Assembly (NCBI RefSeq): GCF_002854065.1
Contig: NZ_CP024149.1
Length of the DNA stretch: 33,301 nt
Direction: 5' to 3' (one strand)
Origin: Escherichia coli
Lineage (GTDB): Bacteria > Pseudomonadota > Gammaproteobacteria > Enterobacterales > Enterobacteriaceae
Below, piece after piece: positions 15,001 through 21,000 of this stretch (position 1 is its first letter; each line of letters begins with the position of its first letter). Position numbers: made by a program.

Positions 15001-18000
15001 TTGTTGAAGGATAAGGATAAAGACAAAAAAGATGAACATGGTGGCATTGGTACGCCAGCTACCCGCGCAGCCATTCTGGAAACGCTGAAGAAAAGAAACT
15101 ATATCACGCTGGAAAAAGGGAAACTTATTCCTACTGATACCGGATATGCGCTTATTGATGCCCTGCCTGGTATAGCGGTTAATCCTGATATGACAGCATT
15201 ATGGTCTGAAAAGCAGGCTGCCATAGAAAATGGCGACCTGACGGTTGAACAGTTTATTAATGATCTGTACGGTGAACTGACAGGCATGATTTCTGATGTT
15301 GACCTGGGCGAGATGAAGATTGAACCCGCTGCGCCAGCAGGGCAGTTTCAACGCCTGGACTCTCCCTGCCCTTCCTGTGGTAAACATATTGTTATCAGGC
15401 CGAAAGGTTATTTCTGTACCGGATGTGAATTTAAAATCTGGAGTGAGTTTTCTGGTAAGAAAATCACCCAGGCACAGGCCGAAAAACTGGTTAAATCAGG
15501 GAAAACCGATTTGATTAAGGGATTTAAAAAGAAAAGTGGTGGAACGTATGATACAGTTCTTGTCCTTGAGGATAAGAAAACAGGGAAGCTGGGTTTTCCG
15601 GCAAGGGCTAAGAAGTGAAAACAAAGCAGGAATGGCTTTTTCAGTTAAGAAAATGTACATCAAGAGATACTCTTGAAAAAGTTATTGAGATTAACCGTTA
15701 CAAACTGCCTTTATCAGAATCAGAGGCATTTTATTCTGCCGCAGATCATCGCCGAGCAGAACTGGTGATGAATAAACTTTATGATAAGGTGCCTTCCGGC
15801 GTCTGGAAGTACGTACACTAAATAAGAGGATTAATTATATGAGCGAACTGACTAAAGAAGATGAATACGGCATTATCAGCCGTACTATGATGAATATTCG
15901 TTCATTGCGTGTTTTTGCCCGTGAGATTGATTTTGAGCAGTTGCTCGAAATGCAGGAAAAGCTCAACGTTGTTATTGAAGAACGTCGTGAAGATGCTGAA
16001 CGTGAAGCGGCTGAACGCCAGGAACTTGAAGCCAAACGTCAGCAGGCCATTGAATACATCATATCTTTAGGTCTTGATCCCGAATCACTCCTTGCTCCTG
16101 TAACAGCAGATACAGTAAAAACCAGGCGGAAAGCCAAAGGCGGAGTAAGAAAGGCTAAATACCGCTTTAAGGATGAAAATGGCGAGATCAGAGAATGGTC
16201 TGGTAATGGCAAGCGTCCGCTTGCTTTACAGAAGCTGCTTGATGAGGGGCATTTCATGGAAGATTTCCTCATTGAGAAAACTAAGCCGGAACAGGCAGAA
16301 TAACCCGCCAGGTATACATCACACAGGGCACTGTTGCAAATAGTCGGTGGTGATAAACTTATCATCCCCTTTTGCTGATGGAGCTGCACATGAACCCATT
16401 CAAAGGCCGGCATTTTCAGCGTGACATCATTCTGTGGGCCGTACGCTGGTACTGCAAATACGGCATCAGTTACCGTGAGCTGCAGGAGATGCTGGCTGAA
16501 CGCGGAGTGAATGTCGATCACTCCACGATTTACCGCTGGGTTCAGCGTTATGCGCCTGAAATGGAAAAACGGCTGCGCTGGTACTGGCGTAACCCTTCCG
16601 ATCTTTGCCCGTGGCACATGGATGAAACCTACGTGAAGGTCAATGGCCGCTGGGCGTATCTGTACCGGGCCGTCGACAGCCGGGGCCGCACTGTCGATTT
16701 TTATCTCTCCTCCCGTCGTAACAGCAAAGCTGCATACCGGTTTCTGGGTAAAATCCTCAACAACGTGAAGAAGTGGCAGATCCCGCGATTCATCAACACG
16801 GATAAAGCGCCCGCCTATGGTCGCGCGCTTGCTCTGCTCAAACGCGAAGGCCGGTGCCCGTCTGACGTTGAACACCGACAGATTAAGTACCGGAACAACG
16901 TGATTGAATGCGATCATGGCAAACTGAAACGGATAATCGGCGCCACGCTGGGATTTAAATCCATGAAGACGGCTTACGCCACCATCAAAGGTATTGAGGT
17001 GATGCGTGCACTACGCAAAGGCCAGGCCTCAGCATTTTATTATGGTGATCCCCTGGGCGAAATGCGCCTGGTAAGCAGAGTTTTTGAAATGTAAGGCCTT
17101 TGAATAAGACAAAAGGCTGCCTCATCGCTAACTTTGCAACAGTGCCTCACACAGACATACACATAGGTATGTCTGTGTGACATACCTATGTACAGTGCCA
17201 GATGGCGTTGCTACGTGAAAAATAACCTACCCTACCCCTGCTTTTTTCGCAGATTTTACGTAGCACACCGTTGCTATAGCATTCATCTAAAAAGCTGAAT
17301 GTCCTTTTCTGTCGCTGTTGCATTTTAATTCACTGAAAAATATTGAGTAATGAAAATGCCGGTAACGCGTCAAGCTGTTGGCCAACGCGACAGGCAGTAT
17401 TGGAAGCAACAAAAAAAATGAAAGAAAAATCCCTCAAATGAAGGAGAAAAAACGGAACTACAGCCGAACGACAGGCACAAAAAAACCCGACTGGTAATCG
17501 GGCTTTTTTGCGTTTTCCAGTCTTGAGTTGGTGGCTCTGACCGGAGAAGGTTACTCTACACCTAACGTTTACATTTTATTCACTATGGTGCTGTAAAGCA
17601 ACTAAATGTGGTTAAGGAACCACATTTAGTGGTGTAACGGGTGTTTTGTGTAGCGTATAATCAGTCAGTTAGTCATGTAGTTGGCTTGCAATCCTGCTGT
17701 TCCCGTATCTGCGGGTATGAACGATTTTAAAGTCCTGGCTGGATAAACAGGTGGTGCTGTATTCGGTGCTCTGGCAGGAGGAGGTCACTCTACACCTAAC
17801 AATGCGAGAGAGCCGTTGTGACAGGCAGTGTATGAGCAAGCAACGGTGATTTCCTCCAGTTTTACTGGAGAAACGGATGATTAATATGTTAATCATCGTT
17901 CTCAGAGCTGTGGTCGCCGTTGCAAACGCGCTGATTGCAGTTCTGGAACTGATCCGCCAATTCATCGATTGATGACAACGGAAACGTAACTAAGGGCAGG

Positions 18001-21000
18001 AAGTGAACCGCTTCCTGCCCTTTAACAAAAAAGGAGGATTTATGGATTTTATGAGCATTTTGGGGCGCTGTTTACTTCTTCCTTTCCCTGTTGCGATGTT
18101 TGTCGGTTGCCTGTTTCCTGGCATCGATGATCGCTTATCCGGAATGCTTATGAGTGTTGCTGTGGGATGTTTATCGTGGTATGTCACCAGACCGAAGAAC
18201 CGACAGACAAAGGCCGCGTAAGTGGCCTTTAATTGGGATACCCTTTAGTTACAACATTCTAATAGCTCATTCCATCCTCCGCTCATCCAGCAAACATAAC
18301 CTCCCTGCCCCTCCCCACTACAGAAAGTGGCGCGCCCCGCCCGTACGGGCGGAATCTAATCGCTTAATTTTGAATGTTGTAACTAAACATACTCATTGCT
18401 GTATTGCCACAAGGTTTCGCAGCAAGGGAGGATACCGAAAGTAACGCTGTCACTTTTGCTTTCAAGTGACCAACCAACGGGTACATCACACTGACATACA
18501 ATAATGTATTTCTTCATGATGTACATCATTGTAATTCATTGTGACATACACTATAGTATGTCCATGTGACATACGCATGCGTACATCACATAGAAATACA
18601 CATGAGTAAATCACTGTGACATACAAGGGGTACTATGATTATCGTAATCGGTGGTGATAAAGGCGGTACAGGTAAATCACATCTGGCAACCAACTTAACT
18701 GTTTGCCTCTCACAACAGGGAAAGAGAACGGGGCTTGTTGAAACAGACCTGAATGGCTCGACCAAAAAATGGAATAAACGCAGAGAACAGGCCGGATTAC
18801 CGCCCGTCGCATTAAATGAAGCCTATGGCGACATCAGTGCCAAAATAACAAAAATGGCAGATGTAGCAGAAATCCTCATTATAGATACTGCCGGATATGA
18901 CAGCACGGAGTTCAGAACTGCACTAAAAGTTGCAGACATTGTGATTGTCCCGATCGACCCGCTTGCCCAGGTGGAAGCAGACAGTCTTCAGACTGTGACA
19001 AAAATTGTCAGGGATGCGCAAAAAATAAATCCCAGGCTGGCTGCACATGTGCTCCTGTATAAATGCCAGCCAAATACGTTCAGTGAACAACAAGAATTAA
19101 GAGACTCTCTCAACAGCCATGATTACTGGCTTAAACCAATGAAAAGCACGGTTTCTTTTCTCCGGGCCTTTGTAAGAGCAATGAATCAGGGAATGGGGGT
19201 TCACGAGTTAAAAAGTAATGTTAGCGGTGCCAGCCAGGCAAAAGCACAAATCGAACTCTTGCTGAAAGAACTGGAACTGTAAATCATAGTGACATACACT
19301 AATGTACATCATCATGATATACATTAGTGTGAAACAATCAGATTAGAAGGTACATCATGGCAAAGCTGGAACTACCAGAACTAGAACAAAACCAGGAAGT
19401 GAACGCCACAAAATTTGTTCAGGACGCAGGAAAACGCCCCACAGAGAACAAAACAAAACTGGCTTCATTCCGCATACCGAATGAATTGCTTGAATTCATT
19501 GATAACGAATCAAAAAGACTGCATCGTCCCAAGACAAAAATAATCAAAGCAGCATTACTGGCTTATCAGGATCTGGACGAAAACGAACTCATTAATTTGT
19601 GGTTCAGAGCTGACAGAAATGATTAATCATAGCAAGTGGCCCAATAAACTCTTTATCATTTTCTTTTAGATACTTATCTGAATGTACTAACTTCATCACT
19701 TTTAAATGTAGTTGTGATTCATTTTTAGTTACTCTTGCAATAAAATACCCTTGTACAGTTGTTGCACGGGTATTTAGGAGCACTAGATGAGCCTTATCGA
19801 TTTAAGTTTATCAGGATTATCAGAACCAGGAACAAAACTTATTGAAAAAATAAGTGATGCTATTGGTGTGCTTTATGAACCTACAAGAATCAGGAAAAAA
19901 GCGAAGGCTGAAGCTGAAGCTAAACGCACAGAGCTAATTTCTAGGTTAGAGCTTGAGGGAATAGAAAAACGGGCAGTTGAGCGTTTTCTCAAACGTGAAA
20001 CGAAACGACAGGAAAACATTGAAAATATAACAATGCAAGCAGCACAAAGTCTATCTGAGAGTGATAATGTTTCTGATATTGACGAAGATTGGATAGAGGC
20101 TTTCTTCAGGGAGTGTGAGGATATTAGTGACGAACAAATGCAAATGCTTTGGGGAAGAATTTTATCCGAAGAAGCAAAGTCAAAAGGTTCGTTTAGTCGT
20201 AGAACCTTAAAACTATTATCCACTATAAGCAAAGAAGAAGCGAACCTTATTACTTATTTTGGAAAGTTTGTTTGGCAGGCAAACAAACTCACTCCAATTT
20301 TATTTACCGATGAGAATGGAGATACTGAAGGTATAACTTTCGATAAACTTTCGGTTTTAGACTCCTTAGGCGTTATTCAACAAGGCATTGGTTATAGTTT
20401 AAGATACAAATTATAAATACTCTCAAGTGTATATTCAGTATGGGATTGCGCAATGATTGCCTAATAAAATTTCTGAAATATTTCTGTATCGCATAATTTT
20501 TTATATCAGATAAATTGTACTGGATTTCTTAAAAAATTGCAGTATAATTGCCGCAATTATCCCACCGTTTATTTTTTAAGTAGTTTCTCATGATGCAGCA
20601 TACTTCTGTGTGGTACCGACGCTCGGTCAGTCCGTTTGTTCTTGTGGCGAGTGTTGCCGTTTTCTTGACCGCGACCGCCAATCTTACCTTTTTTGATAAA
20701 ATCAGCCAAACCTATCCCATCGCGGACAATCTCGGCTTTGTGCTGACGATCGCTGTCGTGCTCTTTGGCGCGATGCTACTGATCACCACGCTGTTATCAT
20801 CGTATCGCTATGTGCTAAAGCCTGTGTTGATTTTGCTATTAATCATGGGCGCGGTGACCAGTTATTTTACTGACACTTATGGCACGGTCTATGATACGAC
20901 CATGCTCCAAAATGCCCTACAGACCGACCAAGCCGAGACCAAGGATCTATTAAACGCAGCGTTTATCATGCGTATCATTGGTTTGGGTGTGCTACCAAGT

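What the first reader, a model, noticed from the sequence alone, without database searches (positions are those of the whole stretch)
17480..18021. Candidate trans-acting type I toxin-antitoxin locus (TisB/DinQ-like peptide plus divergent antisense sRNA) between IS26 and parA
Seen in sequence: a 31-codon ORF (17877..17972, MINMLIIVLRAVVAVANALIAVLELIRQFID) with GGAG 6 nt upstream, followed by a 10-bp perfect-stem hairpin (17996..18021). A consensus -10 TATAAT at 17656..17661 would give a long 5' UTR of about 210 nt. An 18-nt box in that UTR (GGTCACTCTACACCTAAC, 17783..17800) recurs with one mismatch at 17549..17567. On the opposite strand a promoter TTGCTT-17bp-TAAAAT would start a transcript at about 17566 that runs through the complement of the upstream box and ends at a hairpin plus U-run (17486..17509), giving an sRNA of about 85 nt able to pair with the toxin 5' UTR. 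A perfect 13+13 palindrome (17601..17630) sits between the divergent promoters. Established knowledge: this layout (short helical toxin, long structured UTR, divergently transcribed sRNA pairing far upstream of the RBS) is that of tisB/istR-1 and dinQ/agrB; the peptide shares the IIVL...LELIR pattern I recall from DinQ. Inference: a plasmid-borne addiction or persistence module that is probably unannotated because both ORF and RNA fall below standard gene-calling thresholds.
Basis: partly seen in the sequence, partly recalled or inferred. Interest (0 to 1): 0.78.

Follow-up and report, generated by a model that had tools for sequence, protein, structure and literature searches.

The report
Known DqlB/AgrB plasmid toxin-antitoxin locus

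Summary
The window is a ~33.3 kb IncX4 mcr-1 plasmid.

- **Toxin.** The 31-codon ORF 17877..17972 scores 70.6 bits (cut-off 35) against NCBIfam NF041473, "DinQ-like type I toxin DqlB". Identical RefSeq plasmids already annotate it as dqlB.
- **Antitoxin RNA.** The predicted divergent sRNA is an Rfam AgrB match at 17565..17477 on the minus strand, 58.7 bits against a gathering score of 40.
- **Pairing.** The 18-nt box is really a 33-nt repeat (29/33). It covaries between sRNA and target across 12 plasmid families, and the predicted duplex is -57 kcal/mol.
- **mRNA.** The promoter -10, the start site, the structured 5' UTR, the hairpin that sequesters the ribosome-binding site and the terminator all align with E. 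coli dinQ and show compensatory changes.
- **Prior work.** The family was named in 2016 (PMC5066626). It was shown to be a toxic, AgrB-rescued addiction module on IncL pOXA-48 and IncX3 pOXA-484 in 2025 (PMC12365149, PMC12317039).

Three points remain open. The chromosomal LexA box is lost here. A perfect 13+13 palindrome fills the gap between the two promoters. The IncX4 copy itself has not been tested in the papers I found.

The parts
17477..17565 (-). agrB-like antitoxin sRNA gene, about 89 nt. It has a 5' single-stranded pairing region, an internal stem-loop and a terminator hairpin.
   Evidence: Rfam RF02891 AgrB, 58.7 bits (gathering score 40), E 1.2e-7, full model 1-84. The fold has a terminal hairpin, -34.7 kcal/mol. 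Homologous AgrB matches lie divergently upstream of dqlB/dinQ in 12 of 14 fetched loci.
17573..17601 (-). agrB promoter: -35 TTGCTT (17601-17596), 17-nt spacer, -10 TAAAAT (17578-17573). Start site at about 17565.
   Evidence: Read from the sequence. The -10 and the TTGC of the -35 align across loci. The start site matches model position 1 of the Rfam hit. The consensus scan did not list it because the -35 is weak.
17479..17502 (-). agrB intrinsic terminator: stem 17486-17502 followed by a U-run at 17479-17485. It is bidirectional, with a T-run on the plus strand too.
17534..17566 (-). 5' pairing region of the sRNA, the complement of the UTR box.
   Evidence: 33-nt direct repeat with 17768-17800, 29/33 identical. 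The first 13 nt of the sRNA are perfectly complementary to the target.
17601..17630 (.). Perfect 13+13 palindrome (ACTAAATGTGGTT AAGG AACCACATTTAGT) that exactly fills the gap between the two -35 regions. Role unknown; it is a candidate operator.
   Evidence: There is no other copy in the window. It is identical in the IncX1 relatives L016/L017, 12/14 in L003, and absent from the other families and from K-12.
17655..17661 (+). dqlB promoter -10 (GTATAAT). The -35 is poor (TGTAAC at 17633-17638).
   Evidence: GTATAAT is invariant in 7 plasmid loci and K-12 has GTATGAT. The K-12 LexA box that overlaps it (TACTGTATGATTATCCAGTT) reads TAGCGTATAATCAGTCAGTT here, so the CTG half is lost.
17668..18026 (+). 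dqlB mRNA: 209-nt structured 5' UTR, coding sequence and terminator.
   Evidence: The start site is placed by homology to dinQ +1, GUUAG. The consensus fold of 12 homologues has 80 pairs, 30 of them with compensatory changes.
17668..17699 (+). Element 1: the 5' end of the mRNA, which pairs with the box region in the full-length, translationally inert transcript.
   Evidence: MFE structure. The 1:2 duplex is -27.5 kcal/mol against -28.6 in K-12. The GUUAG/CUAAC closing pairs are conserved with covariation.
17768..17800 (+). AgrB target box in the 5' UTR, ending 76 nt before the ATG. It contains element 2 (GGAGGAGGUCAC, 17777-17788).
   Evidence: The duplex with the sRNA head is -57.4 kcal/mol, and the next best unrelated site in the window is -35.8. 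Within-locus match is 21.5/24 against 16.1/24 between loci.
17846..17870 (+). Element 3 (GUGAUUUCCUCC, 17846-17857) and the ribosome-binding-site hairpin (CUCCAGU 17854-17860 / ACUGGAG 17864-17870; Shine-Dalgarno GGAG at 17867-17870).
   Evidence: The hairpin is -9.8 kcal/mol. The alternative 12-bp 2:3 helix is -22.3 kcal/mol. The hairpin stem covaries and its loop varies.
17877..17972 (+). dqlB coding sequence: a 31-aa hydrophobic single-helix toxin.
   Evidence: NF041473, 70.6 bits against a cut-off of 35. Annotated as dqlB, WP_021534057.1. Crude pN/pS 0.15 and GRAVY 1.81. It is 81-87% identical to the DqlB alleles of an IncL pOXA-48-type plasmid and an IncX3-like plasmid, the two backbones on which DqlB was tested.
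17992..18022 (+). dqlB terminator hairpin: 12-bp perfect stem followed by UUUAAC.
   Evidence: It is homologous to the dinQ terminator. Compensatory stem changes occur in L003, L017 and others.

Best explanation
This is the IncX4 allele of the DqlB/AgrB type I toxin-antitoxin module, a plasmid relative of E. coli dinQ-agrB.

Proposed mechanism:
1. A promoter with a perfect -10 and a poor -35 makes a dqlB mRNA of about 359 nt, starting at 17668.
2. In this primary transcript the 5' end pairs with the box region (17768-17800), and the Shine-Dalgarno GGAG is locked in a 7-bp hairpin. The full-length RNA is therefore not translated.
3. By analogy with dinQ, 5' processing removes element 1. This lets element 2 (17777-17788) pair with element 3 (17846-17857) instead, which opens the ribosome-binding site and allows the 31-aa membrane-helix toxin to be made.
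4. The divergently transcribed AgrB-like sRNA (17565..17477, about 89 nt) pairs through its first ~33 nt with the box. That sequesters element 2, keeps the hairpin closed, and probably marks the duplex for RNase III.
5. When the plasmid is lost, the short-lived sRNA would decay before the toxin mRNA and the cell would be killed or arrested. This is post-segregational killing, which stabilises the plasmid.

Shown here: homology, the anatomy, covariation of the pairing, conservation of the RNA structure, and purifying selection on the peptide.

Inferred from homologues: processing, toxicity, relative RNA half-lives, and the addiction phenotype.
For: - **Curated models.** NCBIfam DqlB 70.6 bits (cut-off 35). 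Rfam AgrB 58.7 bits (gathering score 40) in the divergent orientation.
- **Annotation.** Plasmids identical over the 1.2 kb searched annotate dqlB.
- **Same layout elsewhere.** AgrB lies upstream of dqlB/dinQ in 12 of 14 loci from IncX, IncI, IncK/Z, IncF and IncHI2/N plasmids and the K-12 chromosome.
- **Pairing.** 33-nt complementarity. The duplex is -57.4 kcal/mol against -27.9 +/- 3.1 for shuffles, and it is the only strong site in the 33 kb apart from the sRNA's own gene.
- **Covariation in trans.** The sRNA box and UTR box differ between plasmid families but match within each locus: 21.5/24 against 16.1/24, and the same-locus partner is the best or tied-best match in 12 of 12 rows.
- **Promoter and start site.** The -10 and +1 align with dinQ.
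- **Conserved mRNA structure.** 30 of 80 pairs of the consensus structure have compensatory changes, including the closing GUUAG/CUAAC helix, SL2, SL4, the ribosome-binding-site hairpin and the terminator.
- **Alternative helices.** The 1:2, 2:3 and 3:4 helices have energies like those of K-12 dinQ. Truncating the 5' end lowers the cost of the open state from 7.8 to about 4.5 kcal/mol; in K-12 it falls from 7.6 to 3.1.
- **Selection on the peptide.** Crude pN/pS is 0.15.
- **Experiments on homologues.** DqlB is toxic and AgrB rescues it. The locus is an addiction module on pOXA-48 and stabilises a test plasmid when taken from IncX3 pOXA-484 (PMC12365149, PMC12317039). The dinQ switch and the AgrB mechanism were shown by SHAPE and in vitro translation (PMC5066626).
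Against: - No experiment on the IncX4 allele turned up in the literature searches.
- A Tn5 saturation study of the IncX4 plasmid pHNSHP23 reported insertion-free regions only in pir, tsxB and mcr-1. agrB was not noted as essential there, whereas on pOXA-48 it was insertion-free. An 89-nt gene could, however, have been overlooked (PMC8725589).
- This lineage's sRNA has 2 mismatches and 2 G-U pairs over the 33-nt box. K-12 agrB has 1 mismatch in 32, and the inactive agrA has several.
- Thermodynamic folding keeps the ribosome-binding site closed for every 5' truncation tried. The validated K-12 control opens only weakly (0.9 to 0.7), so the test has little power.
Confidence: 0.85

Rival explanations
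1. Homologous but weak or inactive copy. The IncX4/IncX1 lineage keeps the dqlB/agrB sequences, but the module contributes little to plasmid maintenance. This could be because the toxin promoter is weak, the ribosome-binding-site hairpin is stronger than in dinQ, or other systems such as TsxAB dominate.
For: - The IncX4 Tn5 study did not report agrB as insertion-free.
- The ribosome-binding-site hairpin is -9.8 kcal/mol against -6.2 in K-12, and the site is predicted closed in all truncations.
- The dqlB -35 is poor.
- The sRNA has extra mismatches to its target.
Against: - The ORF is intact in the IncX4 and IncX1 loci fetched, and about 300 records are at least 99% identical over this region.
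- Crude pN/pS is 0.15, mostly synonymous change against the IncX1 alleles.
- The sRNA and its box are maintained and covary.
- Close alleles (81-87% identical) come from the two backbones on which DqlB proved toxic (PMC12365149, PMC12317039).
Confidence: 0.1
2. SOS-inducible stress module like chromosomal dinQ. LexA represses it and DNA damage induces it, so it modulates the membrane or nucleoid rather than acting as a plasmid addiction system.
For: - It is a homologue of the LexA-regulated dinQ (PMC5066626).
- One CTG-N10-CAG motif lies at 17735-17750. It corresponds to the weak box (heterology index 11.64) noted upstream of dqlB on plasmid pTF2 (PMC12211044).
Against: - The LexA box that overlaps the dinQ -10 in K-12 is degenerate here (GCG...CAG).
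- The only CTG-N10-CAG lies at +68..+83 inside the transcribed UTR. That segment is conserved as the RNA stem-loop SL2, which explains its conservation.
- DqlB was not detected in the proteomic analysis of the pTF2 SOS study.
Confidence: 0.04
3. Chance ORF and chance motifs in an intergenic spacer, or the 3' UTR of a backbone gene; no gene is present.
For: Short ORFs are abundant: 70 ORFs of at least 25 aa in 5 kb. The consensus scan found no more promoters than in shuffled sequence.
Against: HMM E 7e-20, Rfam E 1e-7, conservation in more than 5000 plasmid records, covariation and purifying selection.
Confidence: 0.01

Closest known systems
DqlB/AgrB type I toxin-antitoxin of plasmids. The dql family was named by Kristiansen et al. 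2016 (PMC5066626) and validated on IncL pOXA-48 (PMC12365149) and IncX3 pOXA-484 (PMC12317039).
   Same: - A 31-aa toxin, 81-87% identical to the alleles of an IncL pOXA-48-type plasmid and an IncX3-like plasmid.
- A divergent AgrB sRNA.
- About 33-35 nt of complementarity to the 5' UTR, well upstream of the ribosome-binding site.
- The same conserved UTR structure and terminator.
- The same NCBIfam model and gene name.
   Different: - A different allele (L4M and other conservative changes) with its own sRNA/target specificity sequence.
- A lineage-specific perfect palindrome between the promoters.
- Linked to a 59-aa small membrane ORF downstream.
- Not individually tested.
E. coli chromosomal dinQ-agrAB (Weel-Sneve 2013; Kristiansen 2016)
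   Same: - Divergent layout.
- The +1 sequence GUUAG, the -10 position, the four-element switch (1:2, 2:3, 3:4), the AgrB target position and the terminator sequence.
- AgrB is recognised by the same Rfam model.
   Different: - DinQ is 27 aa, and the DinQ model scores below its cut-off here (25.2 against 30).
- There is one agr gene rather than two.
- The LexA operator over the -10 is lost.
- It is on a plasmid and is presumed to act in addiction rather than in the SOS response.
tisB/istR-1 (E. coli)
   Same: A small helical inner-membrane toxin with a long 5' UTR that needs processing, and a divergently encoded trans-acting sRNA that pairs far upstream of the ribosome-binding site. This is a general resemblance from established knowledge, also stated in PMC5066626.
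   Different: No sequence relationship was detected. NCBIfam reported no family other than DqlB and DinQ at E <= 1, and Rfam returned nothing but AgrB in the window. TisB control works through a ribosome standby site, not the 2:3/3:4 switch.
hok/sok (plasmid R1 parB)
   Same: A plasmid type I addiction module. Its toxin mRNA is inert until processed, and it is silenced by an unstable antisense RNA.
   Different: Sok is cis-encoded and overlaps the mok/hok leader, and activation is by 3' processing. Here the sRNA is trans-encoded about 200 nt away, and activation is presumed to be by 5' processing. Rfam sok matched other fetched loci (L007, L011, L012) but not this window.

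Membership tests
DqlB (DinQ-like type I toxin, NCBIfam NF041473) | The peptide matches the curated equivalog HMM above its cut-off. | tested here: met
   70.6 bits against a cut-off of 35, E 7.2e-20, full length 1-31 of 31. RefSeq names the identical protein DqlB.
DqlB (dql family as defined in PMC5066626) | A 5' UTR homologous to dinQ, with sigma-70 promoter, conserved stem-loops SL2 and SL4, the a/a' closing interaction, the four elements 1-4, a Shine-Dalgarno sequence placed correctly before the start codon, and a Rho-independent terminator. | tested here: met
   Alignments with K-12 dinQ and 10 dql loci. The consensus structure has 30 covarying pairs. Energies of the 1:2, 2:3 and 3:4 helices. 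GGAG lies 6 nt before the ATG.
AgrB antisense RNA (Rfam RF02891) | The covariance-model score reaches the gathering threshold. | tested here: met
   58.7 bits against 40, full model, at 17565..17477 on the minus strand.
dinQ/agrB-type trans-acting type I toxin-antitoxin | The sRNA is encoded divergently and does not overlap the toxin gene. It is complementary over about 30 nt to the toxin 5' UTR upstream of the ribosome-binding site. | tested here: met
   A 33-nt box, 29/33 identical, whose target ends 76 nt before the ATG. Duplex -57.4 kcal/mol, about 9 SD below the shuffles. It covaries across loci.
dinQ/agrB-type trans-acting type I toxin-antitoxin | The primary transcript is inert; 5' processing opens the ribosome-binding site; sRNA binding closes it again. 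| tested here: inconclusive
   The competing helices exist. Truncation lowers the cost of the open state (7.8 to about 4.5 kcal/mol), but RNAfold keeps the site closed. The validated K-12 control behaves similarly, so the test is weak.
Type I toxin-antitoxin / addiction module | The peptide is toxic, the sRNA rescues, and plasmid loss causes post-segregational killing. | not testable with these tools
   Shown only for the pOXA-48 and pOXA-484 homologues. The IncX4 Tn5 study did not flag agrB.
DinQ proper (NCBIfam NF041472; SOS regulon member) | HMM score above the cut-off, and a LexA operator at the promoter. | tested here: not met
   25.2 bits against a cut-off of 30. The K-12 LexA box position reads GCG...CAG here, and the only CTG-N10-CAG lies at +68..+83 inside the UTR.
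TisB/IstR-1 | Sequence match of the toxin to TisB, or of the sRNA to IstR. | tested here: not met
   NCBIfam reported no family other than DqlB and DinQ at E <= 1. The Rfam gathering scan of the whole window returned only AgrB.

The most novel reading that the evidence does not exclude
In the IncX1/IncX4 lineage the LexA control of the ancestral dinQ-type locus may have been replaced by a different operator. The candidate is the perfect 13+13 palindrome at 17601-17630, which exactly spans the gap between the two divergent -35 regions (centre at -50.5 from the agrB start site and -52.5 from the dqlB start site).

Its arms, AAATGTG...CACATTT, resemble CRP half-sites with the rarer 8-bp spacer. 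That resemblance rests on my own knowledge and was not tested. If real, one host or plasmid regulator would set the toxin:antitoxin transcription ratio, for example according to carbon status.

A second open point is the conserved 59-aa membrane ORF 66-69 nt downstream of a terminator that lacks a U-run. It could be a co-transcribed third component.
Probability: 0.12. Interest if true: 0.4.

Novelty: already known. Interest (0 to 1): 0.15.

Why it matters
IncX4 plasmids are among the main vehicles of the colistin-resistance gene mcr-1. An addiction module on them helps explain why they persist without selection. It also matters for plasmid-curing strategies, because an anti-plasmid tool may need to supply AgrB to avoid killing the host, or could exploit the killing instead.

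That significance has already been argued for the same family on pOXA-48 and IncX3 plasmids (PMC12365149, PMC12317039). This locus adds a confirmed, well-delimited IncX4 allele and not a new principle.

The modest new points are:
- The sRNA and its target covary as plasmid-family-specific pairs.
- The LexA box is lost in this lineage.
- A lineage-specific palindrome lies between the promoters.

Tried and rejected
- **Consensus promoter and terminator scan.** It found neither module promoter (weak -35 boxes) nor the dqlB terminator on the plus strand (no U-run). I rejected it as evidence against the locus, because homology places all of these features.
- **In silico test of the translation switch.** Folding 5'-truncated mRNAs left the ribosome-binding site closed throughout. 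The K-12 control showed that the method barely reproduces the experimentally proven switch, so I treat the result as uninformative and not as negative.
- **More copies of the palindrome half-site.** There are no more than chance, so there is no evidence for a plasmid-wide regulon.
- **Palindromes at the same position in other dqlB loci.** They are not a family-wide feature.
- **LexA regulation.** Rejected for the promoter.
- **Pfam and NCBIfam on the 59-aa downstream ORF.** Nothing matched.
- **Supplements of the IncX4 Cappable-seq and Tn5 paper.** They hold no start-site or insertion table that covers this locus.

Full report
**Context.** The window is an IncX4 plasmid of about 33.3 kb carrying mcr-1. 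The 1.2 kb around the finding is 100% identical to dozens of complete IncX4 plasmids from E. coli, Salmonella and Klebsiella. One of them, pGMI17-004_2, is typed IncX4/MOBP/MPF_T. Its gene order here is topoisomerase, hha, an H-NS family gene, IS26, dqlB, a ParA/MipZ-type ATPase, then mcr-1. IS26 ends at 17146 (read), and parA starts at 18635.

**Checking the observation.**
- The ORF 17877..17972 encodes MINMLIIVLRAVVAVANALIAVLELIRQFID. GGAG sits at 17867-17870, 6 nt before the ATG.
- The hairpin after the ORF has a 12-bp perfect stem (17992-18003 / 18011-18022), not 10 bp.
- The repeated box is 17549-17566 against 17783-17800. It extends to a 33-nt repeat (17534-17566 / 17768-17800) at 29/33.
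- TATAAT is at 17656-17661.
- The minus-strand promoter reads TTGCTT (17601-17596), 17 nt, TAAAAT (17578-17573).
- The 13+13 palindrome is perfect.
- The sRNA terminator stem is 17486-17502. On the minus strand its U-run is 17479-17485, so the RNA ends near 17477 and is about 89 nt long.

A 31-codon ORF means nothing by itself, since 70 ORFs of at least 25 aa overlap this 5 kb. The significance comes from the tests below.

**What it is.**
- The peptide matches NCBIfam NF041473, "DinQ-like type I toxin DqlB", at 70.6 bits (cut-off 35, E 7e-20). It scores below the cut-off on the DinQ model, 25.2 against 30.
- Identical plasmids in RefSeq already carry the gene name dqlB, protein WP_021534057.1.
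- A gathering-threshold Rfam scan of the whole window returns one hit: AgrB (RF02891) at 17565..17477 on the minus strand, 58.7 bits against 40, covering the full model.

**Literature.**
- Kristiansen et al. 2016 defined the dql (dinQ-like) genes, dqlA and dqlB, on enterobacterial chromosomes and plasmids, and worked out the dinQ translation switch.
- A 2025 study showed that pOXA-48 DqlB is toxic, that AgrB rescues it, and that agrB tolerates no transposon insertions. It also showed that the pair is an addiction module, and found dqlB on 53.3% of IncX plasmids.
- A second 2025 study validated the IncX3 pOXA-484 locus for toxicity, rescue and stabilisation of a test plasmid.

**Comparative anatomy.** A distant DNA search finds the locus in at least 5000 plasmid records, nearly all annotated dqlB. 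I fetched 13 diverse plasmid loci plus the K-12 dinQ-agrAB region.
- Rfam finds AgrB divergently upstream of the toxin in 12 of the 14. The two IncL/M loci fall below threshold, although the pOXA-48 paper identified agrB there.
- The -10 GTATAAT is invariant in the plasmid loci (GTATGAT in K-12). The transcript start GUUAG equals dinQ +1, which puts the start site at 17668 and gives a 209-nt UTR.
- A 12-sequence alignment of the whole mRNA gives a consensus structure of 80 pairs, 30 with compensatory double changes. These include the GUUAG/CUAAC closing helix (the published a/a'), SL2, SL4, the Shine-Dalgarno hairpin and the terminator.
- The terminator (AAGGGCAGGAAG...CUUCCUGCCCUU UUAAC) is homologous to the dinQ terminator, which also lacks a long U-run.

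**The sRNA-target interaction.**
- The first ~33 nt of the sRNA are complementary to 17768-17800. The first 13 nt are perfect; overall there are 2 mismatches and 2 G-U pairs.
- The predicted duplex of the sRNA head with the mRNA is -57.4 kcal/mol, against -27.9 +/- 3.1 for 300 shuffles. Apart from the sRNA's own gene, no other site in the 33 kb window exceeds -35.8.
- Most informative, the 5'-most 24 nt of the sRNA differ between plasmid families, yet the UTR box of the same locus carries the matching sequence. Within-locus identity is 21.5/24 against 16.1/24 between loci, and the cognate partner is the best or tied-best match in all 12 rows. This is covariation in trans and supports pairing as the selected function.

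**The peptide is under selection.** Across 11 alleles the crude pS is 0.42 and pN 0.065, a ratio of 0.15. The IncX1 alleles differ from this one mostly by synonymous changes. The peptide is strongly hydrophobic (GRAVY 1.81). It is 81-87% identical to the DqlB alleles of an IncL pOXA-48-type plasmid and an IncX3-like plasmid, the backbones on which DqlB was tested.

**Mechanism.** The four elements of the dinQ switch are all recognisable.
- Element 1 is the 5' end (17668-17699). It pairs with the box region at -27.5 kcal/mol (K-12: -28.6).
- Element 2 (GGAGGAGGUCAC, 17777-17788) can instead form a 12-bp helix with element 3 (GUGAUUUCCUCC, 17846-17857) at -22.3 kcal/mol (K-12: -19.3).
- Element 3 otherwise closes the Shine-Dalgarno hairpin with element 4 (17854-17870) at -9.8 kcal/mol (K-12: -6.2).
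- Removing the 5' end lowers the free-energy cost of the 2:3 (open) state from 7.8 to about 4.5 kcal/mol, the same trend as in K-12 (7.6 to 3.1).
In the experimentally validated K-12 +44 RNA it opens only slightly. The processing-activation step is therefore inferred from homology, not demonstrated.
- AgrB binding covers element 2, which by the published model re-closes the ribosome-binding site.

**Differences from chromosomal dinQ.**
- The LexA operator that overlaps the dinQ -10 (TACTGTATGATTATCCAGTT) is degenerate here (TAGCGTATAATCAGTCAGTT).
- The only CTG-N10-CAG in the locus is at 17735-17750, inside the transcribed UTR, in a segment conserved as RNA stem-loop SL2. It corresponds to the weak box noted on plasmid pTF2, and DqlB was not detected in that study's proteomic analysis.
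- There is a single agr gene rather than agrA plus agrB.
- The gap between the two -35 regions is filled exactly by a perfect 13+13 palindrome. It is identical in IncX1 relatives, 12/14 in a more distant IncX-like plasmid, and absent from other families and from K-12. It has no other copy on the plasmid. Its arms AAATGTG/CACATTT resemble CRP half-sites with an 8-bp spacer (my own knowledge, untested). Its role is unexplained.

**Caveat on function in IncX4.** A saturation Tn5 study of the IncX4 plasmid pHNSHP23 reported that insertions were missing only from pir, the antitoxin gene tsxB and mcr-1. AgrB was not mentioned. It may have been overlooked because it is 89 nt and unannotated, or this allele may be less potent than the pOXA-48 one. 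The raw Cappable-seq, RNA-seq and Tn5 data are public (PRJNA759279) and would settle the start sites and essentiality. The supplements held here carry no such table.

**Verdict.** The locus is a member of a family that is named, modelled in NCBIfam and Rfam, annotated on identical plasmids, and validated experimentally on two other plasmid backbones. It is therefore already known, and interest is low. The residual open points are the palindrome, the loss of the LexA box, the linked 59-aa ORF, and the lack of a direct test of the IncX4 allele.

Noticed in passing
window 18042..18221 (+): A 59-aa hydrophobic ORF (MDFMSILGRCLLLPFPVAMFVGCLFPGIDDRLSGMLMSVAVGCLSWYVTRPKNRQTKAA) with a strong AAGGAGG ribosome-binding site at 18031-18037. 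It starts 69 nt after the dqlB stop and 20 nt after a terminator hairpin that has no U-run. No Pfam or NCBIfam family matches. tblastn finds it in 711 plasmid records; it is unannotated on most of the identical IncX4 records listed and 'hypothetical protein' (WP_000347021.1) elsewhere. It keeps the same position after dqlB in L004, L016 (with a 20-aa in-frame deletion), L019 (dqlB frameshifted there) and L020. It may be co-transcribed with dqlB.
   Followed up: partly
window 17142..17185 and 18481..18624: A 44-nt repeat family. Three copies at 50-bp spacing lie directly upstream of parA (18635). A fourth copy contains a perfect 14+14 palindrome (17147-17180) that abuts the right end of IS26 (17146). 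These are probably partition centromere/operator repeats. One copy lies on the far side of the dqlB module, which suggests that the module or IS26 was inserted into the par region.
   Followed up: no
window 18244..18262 and 18369..18387: A 19-nt inverted repeat, 95% complementary, 106 nt apart. The left arm, TTTAGTTACAAC, is the sequence that directly follows the dqlB terminator in L003, L006, L008, L015 and L017; in L003, L015 and L017 a resolvase gene comes next. Homology with L020 ends at 18263. It looks like a module junction, or a res-site remnant where IncX4 lacks the resolvase gene.
   Followed up: partly
window 17601..17630: A perfect 13+13 palindrome exactly between the -35 boxes of the agrB and dqlB promoters. 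It is lineage-specific (IncX1/IncX4), with CRP-like arms (AAATGTG/CACATTT) but an 8-bp spacer, and has no other copy on the plasmid. Function unknown.
   Followed up: partly
window 17886 (codon 4 of dqlB): This IncX4 allele has ATG (Met) at codon 4, where the ten other dqlB alleles compared have Leu (MINM... against MINL.../MVNL...). This creates a second in-frame start codon 9 nt into the ORF.
   Followed up: no
L020 695..778 and 1339..1434; L011 390..1096: Some plasmids carry tandem duplications of the module. L020 (IncR) has two dqlB genes in a row. L011 (IncI-gamma/K1) has three AgrB-like matches upstream of one dqlB, which recalls agrA/agrB in K-12.
   Followed up: no
L004 958..1299 (-): In NZ_AP027760.1 an annotated 'hypothetical protein' (WP_032142515.1) overlaps the AgrB-like sRNA gene (1209-1296, minus strand). 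It is probably a spurious protein call over the sRNA.
   Followed up: no
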